8,001 nucleotides of DNA from IMG/VR virus record IMGVR_UViG_2698536408_000011. One strand, given 5' to 3'. The notes beneath the pieces were generated by a model, which saw only the letters and a program-made list of their open reading frames with translations, was not told the DNA's origin and did not search any database. This document shows positions 1 to 8,001 of this stretch, in pieces. Every line of letters begins with the position of its first letter. The stretch's first letter is position 1. This stretch comes from a virus (taxonomy: Duplodnaviria > Heunggongvirae > Uroviricota > Caudoviricetes). Made by a program: the position numbers and the translations under genes.

Positions 1-794
<794 letters not shown>

Positions 795-821
795 ATATGT
801 ATTTTCTCTGTTAAGCGTGAG

Positions 822-886: not shown

Positions 887-3067
887 TCATTCTTCCTCTG
901 GATAGCTTGAACTTAAGAGCATATCCTGCGTGAACTGGTCATTAGCTGATTGATTGAAAGTAAAGAAAGATGGTTCATCTGGTCGAACGACAACTTGACC
1001 ACCAAGTGAAACTTTCACTGGCTCCTGAATACGCTTACTCAAAGCACTAATTTCATCCCTCAGACCCTGAATATCTGCACTCGTTAATGCTGAATCTTGC
1101 TTAATGTTGTTTAACTCTGGATGATTGAATCTTGCAATATTCATTGTGGCATTGTTAAACAATTCACCCATTGAACTAAAAATTCTACTCCATCCTTCGT
1201 TAATCATATTCGGTTTATTAGGGTCACCAGAATACACGGGATTAAAGTCACTACCCACACCTACCCCAGACGGATGCATATTAGCGTTTTTGACTACTTC
1301 CTGATTCATAAAATCCAGTGCTTTCTTCAATGCATATAAACCAAGAGTGACGCCTCTGATTTGTGGAATCATTGAAGCTAATGCTAACGCTGTTTCATAA
1401 CCGTCATCAGCATAACCAATTGCAAGAGCACTACCTACACCACCAGCTACACCTTTCAGTTTTCCACCACCTTTACCAGTAGCTACCTGACCAGCCACCT
1501 GATTAGCTCTTGTACCTAACGTTGTGATTGCTCTTGTCAGGTTCATAACCCCTGTAGTAGCACTGAATAGCGTCTTTGCAGATAACGCTATAGCAAGACC
1601 TTTGACGAAGTTGATAAAACCATCACCGACTTCATCAAGTAGTTTTCGTTTAGTGTCATCAAGGCTGTAATAGAACTTCTTAGTCTGTAAAATCCAGCCT
1701 TCAATGGTGTTATTGAATACGCGAATATCATCTACACCAGCTTTAAGCATGTCGATAAGTCCACCGATAGCATCACCAGCGATAGAAGAACTCATCCCCA
1801 TTTCACTAAGCAGGTTACTCAGGCTGGATAAGAAGCCGTTTAGCTCATCCTGTGAACCTGAGAAGATTTTCACCATCGTATCATCCCAATTGTTTGCTAA
1901 CTTACCTAAAGCTGTCTGAGTGCTCTTAGTGACTTCAGCCCAGCCACCCGCTTTATCAATCATCAAGCCCATCTGTTTAGCGACTTTAGGGAGAGTATCA
2001 GCGGAAAGTACCTTCCCGTTTTTCATGGCTGCATCAAGCTCTGTAGCAGTCATACCCAATGCTTCAGCGAATAGCTTAAATGCACCAGCCATACGGTCAC
2101 CTAACTGCCCACGTAATTCCTCAGCCTGAATCTTGCCCTTGCTCGCCATCTGCTCAAATGCTCTCAAAATGCCGTTTAGCTCATCGTTAGAAAGCCCCAT
2201 TAAGCGACTCATAGCCGTTGCATTACCAAATAGCTCCTGTGTCTGTTCCTGTGACATAGAACCCTGAGCACCTGCTGCAAACTTAGCGTAGCTTGATAGC
2301 CCTTCAGAGATATTAAGACCTGTCTTGTCTGCTAAATTTCGAATAAATACCTCAGCTTCAGATGCTTTATCACCAAGTACAAACTTAGCGGCTCTCTGTG
2401 CGGAATCTCGTTTAAGACCTGCATTCATAATGGCCTTGTAAGCGTTAAGAGCACCCATCACAGAGTAAAATGCACCAGATAATTTAATCGCATTGCTTGC
2501 AAGATTATTAAATGCGTCGCTTGTATTGTTAATGCTGGCGGTCTTTGTCTGTGACCTGAGTTTATTCAACGTTTCACGAAGAGATTGATTTAATTTTGCA
2601 AGTTCAGCGTTAAACTTTTCACTTCCAATATTACCAGCCTTACCGCTTAAGCTGTAATACTGTGCTTTAAACATTTTAGCCATCAGCGGATTAATATCAC
2701 CAAGCTTAGACATATTCACGCTATGCGCTGCTGTGATTGCTCTGTTTCCGCTAATTCGTGGTTGCCTTGATTGTTTTGGAGGATTAACAGTGTCATTAAA
2801 TCTGGTGGCAAACTGAAATGCTTTTGTGCTTCTTGCTCTCTGCTCAATCTTGTCAAAGGTCTTATTAAACTTCCTTTCAAGCTGCCCTAAAGAACTTGTC
2901 AGATTGCTGTCAAGTTGCTTGGTATCGACCTTAAACGCTCTATTCAAATTGCGTTCAATTCTTTGTGCTGACTGCAAAGCTGCCTTTTCAACTCTTTGCA
3001 AGCCCTTAATAACGTTTTCACTGAAACTAAGTTCAACGATAAAACTATCAACTGTGAATTTGCTCAT
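887..3067 (-). CDS. Phage tail tape measure protein (726 aa)
   Basis: ATG at 3067..3065 follows AAGAGGTGA with 7-nt spacing. The N-terminal third is alpha-helical and coiled-coil-like. The central region (SRLMGLSNDELNGILRAFEQMASKGKIQAEELRGQLGDRMAGAFKLFAEALGMTATELDAAMKNGKVLSADTLPKV) matches the conserved tape-measure domain pattern (GK-x-x-x-EELR-x-QLG-x-R-x-x-GA). A Gly-rich hydrophobic stretch (GKGGGKLKGVAGGVGSALAIGYA) follows, as in lambda gpH-type proteins. Stop is TGA at 887-889. Confidence 0.85.
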   Translation of the reverse strand: MSKFTVDSFIVELSFSENVIKGLQRVEKAALQSAQRIERNLNRAFKVDTKQLDSNLTSSLGQLERKFNKTFDKIEQRARSTKAFQFATRFNDTVNPPKQSRQPRISGNRAITAAHSVNMSKLGDINPLMAKMFKAQYYSLSGKAGNIGSEKFNAELAKLNQSLRETLNKLRSQTKTASINNTSDAFNNLASNAIKLSGAFYSVMGALNAYKAIMNAGLKRDSAQRAAKFVLGDKASEAEVFIRNLADKTGLNISEGLSSYAKFAAGAQGSMSQEQTQELFGNATAMSRLMGLSNDELNGILRAFEQMASKGKIQAEELRGQLGDRMAGAFKLFAEALGMTATELDAAMKNGKVLSADTLPKVAKQMGLMIDKAGGWAEVTKSTQTALGKLANNWDDTMVKIFSGSQDELNGFLSSLSNLLSEMGMSSSIAGDAIGGLIDMLKAGVDDIRVFNNTIEGWILQTKKFYYSLDDTKRKLLDEVGDGFINFVKGLAIALSAKTLFSATTGVMNLTRAITTLGTRANQVAGQVATGKGGGKLKGVAGGVGSALAIGYADDGYETALALASMIPQIRGVTLGLYALKKALDFMNQEVVKNANMHPSGVGVGSDFNPVYSGDPNKPNMINEGWSRIFSSMGELFNNATMNIARFNHPELNNIKQDSALTSADIQGLRDEISALSKRIQEPVKVSLGGQVVVRPDEPSFFTFNQSANDQFTQDMLLSSSYPEEE

Positions 3068-6084: not shown

Positions 6085-6381
6085 TTACCGGCACTTTCCC
6101 TTGATAATATTGGTGGCCCTCAGATTACCGGGGTCACCGTCTTTTAATCGTAGCTGGTGGACTGAATCCCATAAATCGTAATGATACAGCACCGCAAACT
6201 TCAAAGCGTCAATCTTTAAATCTGTCACATCATCGACGAAATAATAATCCCTCCCTTCTTTCTTCGGTCGAATCCGGTAAACTTCCCCGTGAGTATCTTT
6301 CATCAAGTAACCTTCACGAGAAATGCTGTAACGTCTGAGTAAATAGTCACGGTATTTTCTCTCGCCATTATAAGTTTTCAT
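6085..6381 (-). CDS. Hypothetical protein (98 aa), translationally coupled to the replication initiator gene
   Basis: The ATG at 6381..6379 overlaps the TAA stop of the upstream gene as TAATG and follows GGAGGAATG. The protein begins MKTYNGERKYRDYLLRRYSISREGY.... No family recognised. It sits where a helicase loader would be in lambdoid phages but is far too small. Confidence 0.6.
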   Translation of the reverse strand: MKTYNGERKYRDYLLRRYSISREGYLMKDTHGEVYRIRPKKEGRDYYFVDDVTDLKIDALKFAVLYHYDLWDSVHQLRLKDGDPGNLRATNIIKGKCR

Positions 6382-7334
6382 TAAAACATTCCTCCACCAT
6401 AAACACGTCTGACTTTAACTTTTTCTTTCTTTGGCTCGGTGTGAGTTTTCTTTTTTGGTGTAAAAGTAAAATCATCGTCACTATCATCAAAGTCATCGAG
6501 GTCACTAACCTTGTTCTTTAGCTTCGCATTTCTGAATCTTTCTTTAATTTCTGCTTTACGCTGTTCACGTTTCAATTCCTCTTCAGGGTCTTCTTCATCA
6601 TCAAGGTCAACATCCGGTAATTCATCATCAGTGGCGGGGCACTGTGTGTTTTTATGGTCACTACTAGCAATCACATCAGAGATTTTATCTTCCTTTTTAA
6701 CGACCTCTTTAGCAGCTTCACTATCAAGGTCATCTAAGTCAGATGTTTTAACAGTCTCTTTAATAGCCTCTTCAATACCAAGAGAATCACATTCATGTGA
6801 ATCACAGAGCGAAGCTCCCTTCTTAAAATATTCTTCTTCAAAGTCATCTTCTTTATTGTTATTAATAAGTTCTTTCTTGTTATTACTGTTATTATACGTG
6901 TCAAAGATTTTGACTGACTGAGTAAAAAATTTTGACTCAGTGGGTAAAGAATTTTGACTCAGTGGGTCATCTTTCTTGACTGACTGAGTAACTTTAGACT
7001 CCAGCTTTGCCTTTCTGGCTTCCTTAGCTGTAAGCTCTGTTAAAACCTCCGGTACTTCATCAAGTGAATAAACTTTAATAACACACTGATTGCTTGCAAC
7101 GTTAGTTTTCTTGATTAAACCATGTGCCTCAAGTTGTTTCATACATGCAATCACGGATGTTCTTGTGATTCCAGCATACTGACCAAGATGAGCATATGAA
7201 GGGGTATAATATTGCCCCTTATCGTGATAAAACTTTTGTTCATTCAACATGACAGTGTAAATAATACGGTCGGCAGCTTTAACGCCATTAGTCATCTGAT
7301 AAATACGGTCATCAAACATGTGGAATTTTTCCAT
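6381..7334 (-). CDS. Phage replication initiator / replisome organiser (lambda O-like; 317 aa from the internal ATG) with the origin embedded in its coding sequence
   Basis: The ATG at 7334..7332 follows AAAAAGGAAAATATA; the ORF track start is an upstream TTG at 7391. The N-terminal ~100 aa (MEKFHMFDDRIYQMTNGVKAADRIIYTVMLNEQ...GITRTSVIACMKQLEAHGLIKK) has the winged-helix pattern of phage replication initiator N-domains. Mid-gene iterons and an AT-rich tract follow, then a long acidic low-complexity C-terminal domain (DLDD/DVDLDDEED repeats). Confidence 0.7.
   Translation of the reverse strand: MEKFHMFDDRIYQMTNGVKAADRIIYTVMLNEQKFYHDKGQYYTPSYAHLGQYAGITRTSVIACMKQLEAHGLIKKTNVASNQCVIKVYSLDEVPEVLTELTAKEARKAKLESKVTQSVKKDDPLSQNSLPTESKFFTQSVKIFDTYNNSNNKKELINNNKEDDFEEEYFKKGASLCDSHECDSLGIEEAIKETVKTSDLDDLDSEAAKEVVKKEDKISDVIASSDHKNTQCPATDDELPDVDLDDEEDPEEELKREQRKAEIKERFRNAKLKNKVSDLDDFDDSDDDFTFTPKKKTHTEPKKEKVKVRRVYGGGMF
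6841..6992. other. Putative phage origin of replication (iterons plus adjacent AT-rich unwinding tract) inside the initiator gene
   Basis: The iterons at 6908-6992 are followed, in the direction of gene transcription, by a ~75% AT tract at 6841-6907 (ttctttattgttattaataagttctttcttgttattactgttattatacg). This matches the lambda ori arrangement within gene O. Confidence 0.6.
6908..6992. repeat. Four direct iterons with ~22-bp periodicity, each starting TTGACT
   Basis: TTGACTGACTGAGTAA is identical at 6911-6926 and 6976-6991. ATTTTGACTCAGTGGGT is identical at 6929-6945 and 6951-6967. TTGACT cores sit at 6911, 6933, 6955 and 6976. Confidence 0.75.
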
Positions 7335-7425
7335 TATATTTTCCTTTTTAAAAATAAAACAAAGAAAGGGCTGACCACGTATAGTGACCAACCCCAGAGG
7401 GAGTGAATTAATTAGAAGATGGACT

Positions 7426-7570
7426 GATAAAGGAACTCAGAAGCCTGAGCGATTACGCGAGTATTAACAGCAAAAGGAAAAGCCTTGATTGAATAAGAGG
7501 CCGTGAAAATCTGTCAATACCCTGACGCCTCCCAACGTTGTAACCTCTTAATGTTCTGAGTTCTTTTATC
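7426..7570. repeat. 17-bp inverted repeat pair (16/17 match: GATAAAGGAACTCAGAA / TTCTGAGTTCTTTTATC) flanking a 111-bp segment
   Basis: Read directly: 7426-7442 against the reverse complement of 7554-7570. The enclosed segment contains a consensus TTGACA hexamer (rc of 7512-7517) pointing toward the replication gene, with only weak -10 candidates. Confidence 0.6.
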
Positions 7571-7639
7571 ACCCCATATAAAAACCATAACAGATGTGAT
7601 TATAAATTGCAACAATTATTTCACAGAATAATTACTGAT

Positions 7640-7702
7640 TGGTCATTTATTGTTCACAGGGATACTTCTTAATATCTGAATCACCTATCTTGTAAATGAC
7701 CA
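7640..7702. repeat. 10-bp inverted repeat (TGGTCATTTA / TAAATGACCA) with 43-bp spacer, between the HTH ORF and the IR-flanked segment
   Basis: Read directly: 7640-7649 against the reverse complement of 7693-7702. Confidence 0.55.
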
Positions 7703-7716
7703 TATTTATGAGAATT

Positions 7717-7863
7717 TTAGCTCAACCTTTGAGCAATCCTGTATGACGTGCTCAGAGGCATTCTGAGAGCATCTGCAATGCACTTAATGGGTTTTCCTTG
7801 CCTGTATAGTTTTATGAAGCTGTCGAGCGTCTCAGGTGGGTAAATGGTGGGTCTTCCTCTCAA
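7717..7863 (-). CDS. Short helix-turn-helix ORF resembling the C-terminal DNA-binding domain of serine recombinases (invertase/resolvase type); possibly a gene fragment
   Basis: The frame is open from 7896 to the TAA stop at 7719..7717. It has no in-frame ATG near its 5' end; the only candidate start is a TTG at 7863..7861, 1 nt after AGAGGAGG. The translation (..NRGGLRGRPTIYPPETLDSFIKLYRQGKPIKCIADALRMPLSTSYRIAQRLS) shows a Gly-Arg-Pro arm followed by three helices ending in STxYR, as in Hin/Gin-type C-terminal domains. Neither upstream frame reaching the window edge looks like a recombinase catalytic domain. Confidence 0.35.
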   Translation of the reverse strand: MRGRPTIYPPETLDSFIKLYRQGKPIKCIADALRMPLSTSYRIAQRLS

Positions 7864-8001
7864 GCCTCCTCTGTTAATGATGGTTAACGGTAATGCTTAC
7901 GTGGTTCTTTTTTAAAAACAACGACTGCACTAGGAAACGGTGAACGAATAGTAAGCCCGTTATGGCCTGCTGGTGGAAGGTATTTAACTGCACGATGAAG
8001 A

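What the first reader, a model, noticed from the sequence alone, without database searches (positions are those of the whole stretch)
6841..6992. Lambda-type origin embedded in the initiator gene: four ~22-bp iterons plus an AT-rich tract
Two identical 16-mers and two identical 17-mers, all beginning TTGACT, are spaced at two helical turns and followed by a ~75% AT tract. They lie in the linker-coding part of the initiator gene between its N-terminal DNA-binding domain and acidic C-terminal domain. This is the architecture of lambda ori within gene O, which implies the element can initiate its own replication. The outer and inner iteron pairs carry the 7-mer ACTGAGT / ACTCAGT in opposite orientation, giving the array partial dyad symmetry.
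Basis: partly seen in the sequence, partly recalled or inferred. Interest (0 to 1): 0.5.

Follow-up and report, generated by a model that had tools for sequence, protein, structure and literature searches.

The report
Replication origin inside its initiator gene
A small mobile island in E. coli/Shigella carries four protein-binding repeats and an easily melted AT-rich stretch inside the gene for its own replication starter protein; this layout is already known from phage lambda and staphylococcal plasmids, so it is a well-supported but ordinary new example.

Summary
Four repeats at exactly 22-bp spacing (6900-6991) adjoin a 78% AT tract (6841-6899). Both lie inside the minus-strand gene 6381-7334, in the part that encodes a predicted disordered linker. 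The array is far beyond chance (z about 11; 0 of 1000 shuffles). The 22-bp period is not a multiple of three, so the repeat is kept at the DNA level.

The strongest evidence is comparative. Relatives share the acidic C-terminal half but carry at least three (five with distant relatives) different N-terminal winged-helix domains. Each variant has its own set of about four 22-23-bp-spaced semi-palindromic repeats, followed by an A-rich tract, at the same gene offset. Lambda's iterons and AT tract sit at almost the same offsets in gene O.

The protein is not a sequence member of the lambda O family. By fold it is closest to RepA_N initiators (Vibrio PLE RepA, staphylococcal pSK41-type Rep). In pSK41 four Rep boxes also lie centrally within rep.

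The host element is a roughly 11-14 kb island with serine recombinases and Felix-O1-like tape-measure and baseplate genes. It resembles, but is distinct from, putative E. coli satellites already described.

Verdict: a replication origin embedded in its initiator gene, inferred and not tested experimentally; a new member of a known kind, of moderate interest.

The parts
6381..7334 (-). Initiator gene (317 aa, ATG at 7334). It encodes an N-terminal winged-helix DNA-binding domain (aa ~9-100), a disordered linker (aa ~101-248), a C-terminal helix (aa 250-273) and an acidic/basic tail.
6966..6980 (-). Iteron 1 in gene order. Core GTCAA-GAAAG-ATGAC, an imperfect 15-bp palindrome.
6944..6958 (-). 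Iteron 2. Core GTCAA-AATTC-TTTAC.
6922..6936 (-). Iteron 3. Core GTCAA-AATTT-TTTAC.
6900..6914 (-). Iteron 4, next to the AT tract. Core GTCAA-AATCT-TTGAC, a perfect 5+5 palindrome.
   Evidence: In types B and C the AT-proximal iteron is also a perfect palindrome.
6900..6991 (.).
6841..6899 (-). AT-rich tract (78% AT; A-rich on the coding strand, 32 A against 15 T in 60 nt). Candidate DNA-unwinding element.
6867..6881 (-). 15-mer AACAAGAAAGAACTT inside the AT tract. It is identical in two very distant family members and is read in a different frame in one of them.
   Evidence: window offset 454, frame 0; L059 offset 520, frame 0; L058 offset 512, frame 1
7367..7395 (-). Terminator-like hairpin plus T-run in the leader, about 30 nt upstream of the initiator ATG. 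A possible attenuation control; each N-terminal type has its own version.
7584..7612 (-). Weak promoter-like site, TTGCAA-17-TATGGT, in the upstream stretch conserved across all types. Tentative: it falls below the threshold of the scan tool.
   Evidence: My reading of alignment A6; not flagged.

Best explanation
6841-6991 is the vegetative replication origin of a small integrative island, embedded in the linker-coding part of the island's own initiator gene.

**Shown**
- Four 22-bp-spaced semi-palindromic repeats sit next to an A-rich, 78% AT tract.
- The region lies in a predicted disordered linker between a RepA_N/DnaD-like winged-helix domain and a conserved acidic C-terminal part.
- The same layout is kept, with unrelated repeat sequences, in every allelic and distant variant of the protein that I examined.

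**Inferred**
- Dimers of the N-terminal domain bind the 15-bp cores (5-bp half-sites 10 bp apart, flanking an A-tract).
- Four phased, bent sites form an O-some-like nucleoprotein complex.
- That complex melts the adjoining AT tract.
- The conserved C-terminal part then recruits a helicase or primase, from the host or from a helper phage.
- Transcription of the initiator gene runs through the origin, as in lambda.
- The N-terminal domain, its leader and the iterons are exchanged together as one specificity cassette, while the C-terminal recruiting part is kept.
For: 1. The array is real and non-random.
2. The period of 22-23 bp is not a multiple of 3. Copies are read in different frames (VTQSVK / DPLSQN / LPTESK / FTQSVK), so the repeat is maintained as DNA.
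4. E. coli and metagenome homologues share the C-terminal half but fall into three N-terminal types at 35-45% identity. Each type has four own repeats at gene offsets about 345-435:
   - type A: GTCAA-N5-TTGAC
   - type B: AACCA-N5-TGGTT
   - type C: GTGAC-N5-GTCAC

   Distant relatives L058 and L059 also have about 4 and 3-4 repeats plus an A-rich tract.
5. The lowest-GC 50-mer of the gene starts at offset 425-439 in all three types, and at 438 in lambda O.
6. The repeats lie in residues with pLDDT below 50. In pSK41 the equivalent ori-encoded linker is dispensable for the protein (PMC5703833).
7. Within-type polymorphism is lower in iteron cores (9/180) than at third codon positions of the N-terminal domain (63/349, p = 1.4e-5) or in the adjacent AT tract (28/180, p = 0.0015).
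8. The semi-palindrome converging on an A-tract is the described form of RepA_N iterons (PMC7145576).
9. The context is an integrative element with a large serine recombinase, which needs replication after excision.
Against: - There is no experimental evidence of binding, unwinding or replication.
- Covariation of the iterons with the N-terminal domain could partly reflect physical linkage: they are adjacent, so any divergent allele carries a divergent linker. The argument therefore rests on conservation of the architecture, not on proven specificity.
- Cores are not significantly more conserved than the 7-bp spacers (p = 0.09).
- No helicase-loader gene follows the initiator.
- No DnaA box is nearby.
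- The island copy in this window is damaged, so the origin may no longer be used here.
- In the sister satellite family (L061) the candidate iterons are intergenic, not in the gene.
Confidence: 0.78

Rival explanations
1. The repeats are binding sites for the same protein but serve mainly in regulation: autorepression, copy-number control by handcuffing, or a transcriptional roadblock inside the gene. The true origin would lie elsewhere, for example in the AT-rich non-coding stretch 7550-7700.
For: Iterons often have dual roles in plasmids (general knowledge). 7550-7699 is 27% GC. In the related satellite L061 the repeat array is intergenic.
Against: - No copy of the iteron motif lies outside the array in 8 kb.
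- The upstream non-coding stretch is conserved across all N-terminal types, so it cannot carry type-specific sites.
- The AT tract directly abutting the best palindrome is conserved in position in five variants and in lambda.
Confidence: 0.1
2. The array is a recognition site for something other than the initiator. Examples are a packaging (pac/cos-like) signal for a helper-phage terminase, or a target or decoy for a phage-encoded origin-directed nuclease.
For: The island looks like a phage satellite carrying Felix-O1-like tail genes. In PLE and in the described E. coli satellites, phage T5orf172-RepA_N nucleases target the satellite origin (PMC10055350).
Against: - A helper-determined site should not change whenever the island's own N-terminal domain changes.
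- tblastn of the three N-terminal types finds no enterobacterial phage homologue.
- Being a nuclease target would be secondary to being an origin, not an alternative to it.
Confidence: 0.05
3. The repeats are a by-product of a repetitive, low-complexity peptide linker or of replication slippage, with no function as DNA.
For: The region encodes a disordered linker. Whole-unit indels occur.
Against: - The 22-23-bp period puts successive copies in different reading frames.
- Unit loss frameshifts and breaks the gene, so slippage is costly.
- Five unrelated repeat sequences keep the same number, spacing, palindromic form and flanking A-rich tract.
- Cores are less polymorphic than neighbouring linker DNA.
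Confidence: 0.03
4. It was an origin, but it is a relic in this genome: the island copy is defective and the module no longer fires.
For: An IS end lies at window 1-44. The methyltransferase gene at 7717-8001 has several stops compared with L001. Other copies carry IS21 insertions or frameshifted initiators.
Against: The initiator ORF, all four iterons and the AT tract are intact here. They are 99% identical to a protein cluster with 193 member sequences. The repeats are identical to those in L001.
Confidence: 0.25

Closest known systems
Phage lambda ori within gene O (lambdoid O/ori replicon)
   Same: - The origin lies in the middle of the initiator gene.
- Four imperfect inverted-repeat iterons are spaced about two helical turns apart (lambda 20/24/23 bp, here 22/22/22 bp).
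- They are followed, in the direction of the gene, by an A-rich AT tract.
- The gene offsets nearly coincide: iterons 349-433 against 348-435; lowest-GC 50-mer at 438 against 439.
- The N-terminal domain would bind DNA and the C-terminal part is conserved while the N-terminal domain plus iterons are swapped, as among lambdoid phages (my knowledge; ori features from PMC7466680).
   Different: - No sequence membership in Phage_rep_O; hhalign probability 4%.
- No P-like helicase-loader gene downstream.
- Shorter cores (15 bp against 18-19 bp).
- The host element is an island of about 11-14 kb with serine recombinases, not a lambdoid phage.
RepA_N-family theta replicons of Gram-positive plasmids (pSK41 Rep; pPR9 chimera)
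   Same: - pSK41 Rep is 319 aa. Its roughly 120-aa N-terminal domain binds four Rep boxes centrally within rep. The ori-encoded central linker is dispensable, and the C-terminal domain is conserved and recruits DnaG.
- pPR9 swapped the N-terminal domain (a PF13730 HTH) plus the ori while keeping the C-terminal domain (PMC5703833).
- Here the protein is 317 aa, with four repeats in the linker, a disordered linker, a swapped PF13730-type N-terminal domain plus iterons, and a conserved C-terminal half.
   Different: - No hit to Pfam RepA_N PF06970 by sequence.
- Gram-negative chromosomal island, not a plasmid.
- The C-terminal part is unrelated and very acidic.
- Antisense-RNA control was not examined; only a terminator-like leader hairpin was seen.
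Vibrio cholerae PLE RepA/ori, and the putative E. coli satellites of Barth, Dunham and Seed 2023
   Same: - PLE also pairs a large serine recombinase with a RepA_N initiator and parasitises a virulent myovirus (PMC7145576).
- The E. coli satellites carry RepA_N-domain initiators with modular N-terminal domains plus tape-measure and baseplate genes (PMC10055350). An example fetched here shows the same gene order.
   Different: - The PLE origin is in a non-coding region. In the fetched E. coli satellite (L061) the candidate iterons are also intergenic and its RepA has no internal repeats.
- This island occupies a different locus from the listed satellite in the same genome.
- No phage-encoded homologue of its N-terminal domains was found.
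- That paper does not mention iterons or the position of the origin.

Membership tests
Lambdoid O/ori replicon | The initiator's N-terminal domain belongs to Pfam PF04492 (Phage_rep_O). | tested here: not met
   Lambda O hits PF04492 at 5.7e-36. The N-terminal domains of types A, B and C give no PF04492 hit up to E = 10. hhalign of the family against an O-family alignment gives probability 4%. BLASTP shows nothing.
Lambdoid O/ori replicon | The origin lies in the middle of the initiator gene: four or more imperfect inverted-repeat iterons followed by an AT-rich tract. | tested here: met
   The feature definition is from PMC7466680 and the lambda record annotation.
Lambdoid O/ori replicon | A P-type helicase-loader gene lies directly downstream and is recruited by the O C-terminal domain. 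| tested here: not met
   The downstream 98-aa ORF (6085-6381) and the next ORFs have no Pfam, PHROG or NCBIfam hit.
Lambdoid O/ori replicon | The initiator binds the iterons, forms an O-some and unwinds the AT tract. | not testable with these tools
   Needs EMSA, footprinting and unwinding assays.
RepA_N-type replicon (pSK41-like) | The N-terminal domain has the RepA_N / DnaD-NTD winged-helix fold. | tested here: met
   [not shown]
RepA_N-type replicon (pSK41-like) | Sequence match to Pfam PF06970 (RepA_N). | tested here: not met
   PF06970 is not among the hits up to E = 10. The family instead hits PF13730 HTH_36 in 7 of 11 members.
RepA_N-type replicon (pSK41-like) | Four Rep boxes lie centrally within rep, in DNA that encodes a linker. 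The boxes are semi-palindromes converging on an A-tract. | tested here: met
   Definitions are from PMC5703833 and PMC7145576.
RepA_N-type replicon (pSK41-like) | The C-terminal domain is conserved independently of the N-terminal domain and recruits a host primase or helicase. | tested here: inconclusive
   Independent conservation is shown. The recruiting function and the partner are unknown.
PLE-like / described E. coli putative satellites | A small integrative island with a recombinase, a RepA_N-like initiator, a few helper-derived structural genes and no full virion gene set. | tested here: met
   L001 carries a large serine recombinase, baseplate and tape-measure genes, the initiator, a methyltransferase and a small recombinase between tonB and yciI. 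The tail genes are 88-93% identical in DNA to Felixounavirus genes.
PLE-like / described E. coli putative satellites | Listed among the 224 elements of Barth et al., or its RepA N-terminal domain is mirrored by a phage T5orf172 nuclease. | tested here: not met
   In CP009050 the listed element is at 285104-310364, whereas this island is at 1538066-1541544. There are no enterobacterial phage tblastn hits for types A, B or C.
PLE-like / described E. coli putative satellites | Excision, replication and transfer depend on a helper phage. | not testable with these tools
   Needs infection experiments.

The most novel reading that the evidence does not exclude
The island would be an undescribed PLE-like satellite of virulent Felix-O1-type phages in E. 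coli and Shigella. Its replicon would be a RepA_N-fold initiator with the origin inside the gene.

If so, the near-identical gene offsets of iterons and AT tract in this gene, in lambda O and in pSK41 rep would mean that all three are one ancient 'initiator with in-gene origin' module spread across phages, plasmids and satellites. The three or more swapped cassettes (N-terminal domain, leader and iterons) would record an arms race over origin specificity, for example against origin-directed phage nucleases.
Probability: 0.3. Interest if true: 0.6.

Novelty: new member of a known kind. Interest (0 to 1): 0.36.

Why it matters
It pins down, to about 150 bp, the probable origin of a poorly characterised family of E. 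coli/Shigella islands. About 150 of 5426 complete E. coli genomes carry the initiator gene.

The family offers a natural specificity panel: three allelic and two distant pairs of N-terminal domain and iterons, all on a shared C-terminal part. That makes initiator-iteron recognition and incompatibility directly testable.

The fold also ties a Gram-negative island initiator to the RepA_N/pSK41 and PLE initiators, while the DNA layout matches lambda. This is a useful data point for the idea that these in-gene origins are related. As a type of origin it is not new.

Tried and rejected
- **Phage homologues.** tblastn of the full initiator and of the three N-terminal domains against 50,697 phage records gave no enterobacterial hit, only a weak Parageobacillus phage match. 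The link to phage-encoded origin-directed nucleases could not be made.
- **Collection scans.** The genome-contig scan returned only one locus, because the chosen patterns were C-terminal. The viral-contig scan returned none. The metagenome scan returned 45 loci, all of types A-C.
- **Family size.** A phmmer search of 1.84 billion representatives found only 18 hits, so a deep alignment was not possible. The AF2 model therefore rests on 8 sequences (mean pLDDT 52.6; only the N-terminal domain and one helix are confident).
- **Homology to lambda O.** Not supported by hhalign or BLASTP.
- **Fixed-period statistic.** It does not capture type C, whose spacing is 23/23/22 (z = 2.4). That array was shown by the repeat finder instead.
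- **Other scans.** Rfam found nothing credible. There is no DnaA box near the array and no GATC in 6800-7050. PADLOC found nothing, and NCBIfam matched none of the window's proteins, only the small recombinase of L001.
- **Selection on cores against spacers.** Suggestive only (p = 0.09).
I considered ACTGAGT/ACTCAGT as the recognition element and rejected the idea. They sit at different registers relative to the conserved TTGAC and mostly in the spacers. All three types instead share a 5-N5-5 palindrome plan.
Full report
**1. The observation**

The window has a minus-strand ORF at 6381-7334 (317 aa from the ATG at 7334). Inside it, the repeat finder reports four copies of a 22-nt unit starting at 6900, 6922, 6944 and 6966.

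The outer copies share the exact 16-mer TTGACTGACTGAGTAA (6910-6925 and 6976-6991). The inner copies share the exact 18-mer AATTTTGACTCAGTGGGT (6928-6945 and 6950-6967). Counted from TTGACT the inner identity is 14 nt, not 17.

The stretch 6841-6899 is 78% AT against 63% for the gene. It holds the lowest-GC 50-mer of the gene.

The array is not a chance feature. The best 4-copy periodic array has 13 of 22 columns identical in all copies. In 1000 codon shuffles and 1000 dinucleotide shuffles the mean is about 4 and the maximum is 8 (z = 11-14). The motif GTCAA-N5-TTGAC with at most 1 mismatch occurs four times in 8 kb, all in the array, against 0.34 expected.

The period is 22 bp, so successive copies are read in different frames (…VTQSVK…DPLSQN…LPTESK…FTQSVK…). 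The repeat is therefore a DNA feature, not a peptide repeat.

**2. The protein**

The N-terminal 170 residues match PHROG families annotated 'replication initiation protein' or 'replication initiation O-like' (E 2e-10 to 9e-6). Pfam gives only sub-threshold winged-helix hits (HTH_Crp_2, DnaD_N) for this protein. However, 7 of 11 family members hit PF13730 HTH_36.

An AlphaFold2 model built on 8 sequences gives three regions:
- a confident winged-helix domain at residues about 9-100 (pLDDT 75-89)
- no confident structure for residues 101-248
- one helix at 250-273

The iterons (codons about 116-145) and the AT tract (codons about 146-165) therefore encode a predicted disordered linker.

Against predicted viral structures the hits are phage replication initiators, including a 'replication protein O' of phage Min27.

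The family is small. A phmmer search of 1.84 billion cluster representatives gives 18 hits at E ≤ 1e-3.

**3. Comparative evidence**

A blastn search of complete E. coli genomes finds the gene in 151 genomes. Only 25 match over most of its length. The others match only window 6381-6844, the C-terminal half.

Translation of nine copies shows three N-terminal types, 35-45% identical to one another, on a common C-terminal part. Forty-five metagenome loci fall into the same three types.

Each type has its own four repeats at the same place:

| Type | Core | Spacing (bp) |
|---|---|---|
| A (this window) | GTCAA-N5-TTGAC | 22 |
| B | AACCA-N5-TGGTT | 23 |
| C | GTGAC-N5-GTCAC | 23/23/22 |

All three cores are 15-bp semi-palindromes around an A/T-rich centre. 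In each type the copy nearest the AT tract is a perfect palindrome. The conserved TTGAC is one half-site, and the oppositely oriented 7-mers lie mainly in the 7-bp spacers.

Two distant relatives (24-27% identity over the full-length alignment; 36-42% over the N-terminal domain) show the same plan. L058 has four copies of CTACACCTCT(GAAA/CAGA)GCAC. L059 has three to four copies of GGTGAGTCCTGAAGACAC. In both, an A-rich tract follows.

The 15-mer AACAAGAAAGAACTT in the AT tract is identical in the window, L058 and L059. It lies 16-20 nt after the last repeat in each, and in L058 it is read in a different frame.

Within types, iteron cores are less polymorphic (9/180 variable sites) than third codon positions of the N-terminal domain (63/349, p = 1.4e-5). 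They are also less polymorphic than the adjoining AT tract (28/180, p = 0.0015). The difference from the spacers (8/68) is not significant (p = 0.09).

Whole-unit indels occur in types B and C. Because the unit is not a multiple of three, they break the gene.

**4. Comparison with lambda**

I fetched the lambda record. In gene O (900 nt) the four annotated iterons occupy offsets 349-433 and the lowest-GC 50-mer starts at 438. In this gene (954 nt) the array occupies 348-435 and the lowest-GC 50-mer starts at 439. In types B and C it starts at 425-437. In all of them the tract is A-rich on the coding strand (29-35 A against 7-18 T in 60 nt).

PMC7466680 states that the lambdoid origin lies in the middle of O and consists of iterons plus an AT-rich tract. 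It also states that the iteron is a 19-bp imperfect inverted repeat.

So the layout is the same. Sequence homology is not demonstrable. Lambda O hits Pfam Phage_rep_O at 5.7e-36 and this family does not hit it at all. hhalign gives 4% probability, although the aligned stretch is the equivalent helix-turn-helix.

**5. Comparison with RepA_N replicons**

PMC5703833 describes pSK41 Rep as follows:
- It is 319 aa, and its 120-aa N-terminal domain binds four Rep boxes centrally within rep.
- The ori-encoded central domain acts as a linker and is dispensable.
- The C-terminal domain is conserved within a genus and binds DnaG.
- In the pPR9 chimera the N-terminal domain (a PF13730 HTH) and the origin were replaced together, while the C-terminal domain was kept.

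PMC7145576 describes RepA_N iterons as semi-palindromic direct repeats whose inverted repeats converge on a poly-A tract. Every one of these points is matched here, apart from the Pfam RepA_N sequence signature.

**6. The element**

In an undamaged copy (L001) the gene sits in an island between tonB and yciI. In order, the island carries:
- a large serine recombinase (interrupted there by IS21)
- a 'phage baseplate protein'
- a 726-aa tape measure protein
- several small ORFs of unknown function
- the initiator
- an N6-adenine methyltransferase
- a small serine recombinase

The baseplate and tape-measure genes are 88-93% identical in DNA to adjacent tail genes of Felixounavirus phages, in the same order. 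This looks like a satellite of virulent Felix-O1-type phages.

Barth, Dunham and Seed (PMC10055350) described 224 putative E. coli satellites. These have RepA_N-domain initiators, modular RepA N-terminal domains, and tape-measure and baseplate genes. They did not mention iterons or the position of the origin.

In genome CP009050 their element is at a different locus from this island. It has the same gene order but a tyrosine integrase. Its RepA has no internal repeats, and its candidate iterons are intergenic. So this island is a related but separate lineage, and the in-gene origin is a feature of this lineage.

The copy in the window is partly decayed. There is an IS end at 1-44 and stops in the methyltransferase gene. 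The initiator, iterons and AT tract are intact.

**7. Mechanism**

Shown: the anatomy, its statistical significance, its conservation across divergent variants, the fold of the N-terminal domain and the disorder of the linker.

Inferred by analogy with lambda O and pSK41 Rep:
- Dimers of the N-terminal domain occupy the four phased semi-palindromes and bend them.
- The complex melts the adjoining A-rich tract.
- The conserved C-terminal part brings in a helicase or primase from the host or from a helper phage.
- Transcription of the gene passes through the origin.

No loader gene follows the initiator and no DnaA box is nearby. This fits recruitment through the C-terminal part. Whether the initiator alone suffices is open, since PLE RepA does not.

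**8. Rivals**

- A purely regulatory role for the repeats is unlikely. No copy lies outside the array, and the upstream region is shared by all types.
- A helper-determined packaging or nuclease site should not covary with the island's own DNA-binding domain.
- A peptide-repeat or slippage artefact is excluded by the frame argument.
- The main caveat is that iterons and N-terminal domain are physically adjacent. Their co-replacement alone does not prove specificity. The weight lies on the repeated re-creation of the same architecture with unrelated sequences.

**9. Verdict**

It is best described as a RepA_N-fold initiator with an in-gene origin of the lambda/pSK41 type, in a probable phage-satellite island. 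It is a new member of a known kind. The interest is moderate and lies mainly in the natural panel of swapped specificity cassettes and in the link between the lambda, RepA_N plasmid and satellite replicons.

Noticed in passing
window 16-804 and 887-3067; L001:15839-29630: The host element is an island of about 11-14 kb between tonB and yciI. It carries a large and a small serine recombinase and homologues of two adjacent Felixounavirus tail genes (tape measure and the next 'baseplate' gene), 88-93% identical in DNA and in phage order. [quoted passage not shown] 2023, but it sits at another locus and no major capsid protein was recognised.
   Followed up: partly
window 7367-7395 (minus strand): A terminator-like hairpin (12 pairs) plus a T-run lies about 30 nt upstream of the initiator ATG. 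Types B and C have a different hairpin at the same place, and the leader is swapped together with the N-terminal domain. This may be attenuation or antisense control, as for pSK41 rep.
   Followed up: partly
window 6867-6881; L058:6512-6526; L059:6520-6534: The 15-mer AACAAGAAAGAACTT in the AT tract is identical in three very divergent family members. It lies 16-20 nt after the last iteron, and in L058 it is read in another frame. It is a candidate unwinding or host-factor element.
   Followed up: partly
L012:3326-3384; L026, L027 (type B): Loss of exactly one 23-bp iteron leaves three copies, frameshifts the initiator gene and splits or truncates it. Copy-number change of the origin repeats is thus coupled to loss of the protein.
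   Followed up: partly
L018 and L022 (metagenome contigs): These contigs encode a 497-aa initiator with an internal tandem duplication running from the iterons to the C-terminal helix. The gene would therefore carry two copies of the origin. This may be real or an assembly artefact.
   Followed up: no
window 6465-6503 (aa 278-290, DLDDFDDSDDDFT): The conserved acidic-aromatic C-terminal motif resembles, from memory, the SSB C-terminal tip (DFDDDIPF). It may be a docking motif for replication proteins. The motif is kept in types A-C.
   Followed up: no
window 1-44 and 7717-8001: The left end of the window is an IS end found on many Shigella and E. coli plasmids. The N6-adenine methyltransferase gene upstream of the initiator carries several stop codons relative to L001. 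The nearest protein cluster is from Shigella sonnei, so this island copy is decaying.
   Followed up: partly
L061:10965-11062: In a satellite of the Barth et al. set, four copies of ACCTRGGAAATGAKTTCC (palindromic GGAA-N5-TTCC) lie in a long non-coding stretch about 1.4 kb upstream of its 222-aa RepA. This is a candidate intergenic origin and contrasts with the in-gene origin here.
   Followed up: partly
window 6085-6381 (minus strand): A 98-aa ORF overlaps the initiator stop codon (ATGA) and is conserved next to all three initiator types. It has no hit in Pfam, PHROGs, NCBIfam or PADLOC. In L047 it is fused in frame to the initiator.
   Followed up: no
L059:6933-7184: In the distant relative L059 a T5orf172/GIY-YIG-like nuclease gene directly follows the initiator, and a large serine recombinase lies upstream. 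This recalls the RepA_N-T5orf172 origin-directed nucleases.
   Followed up: no
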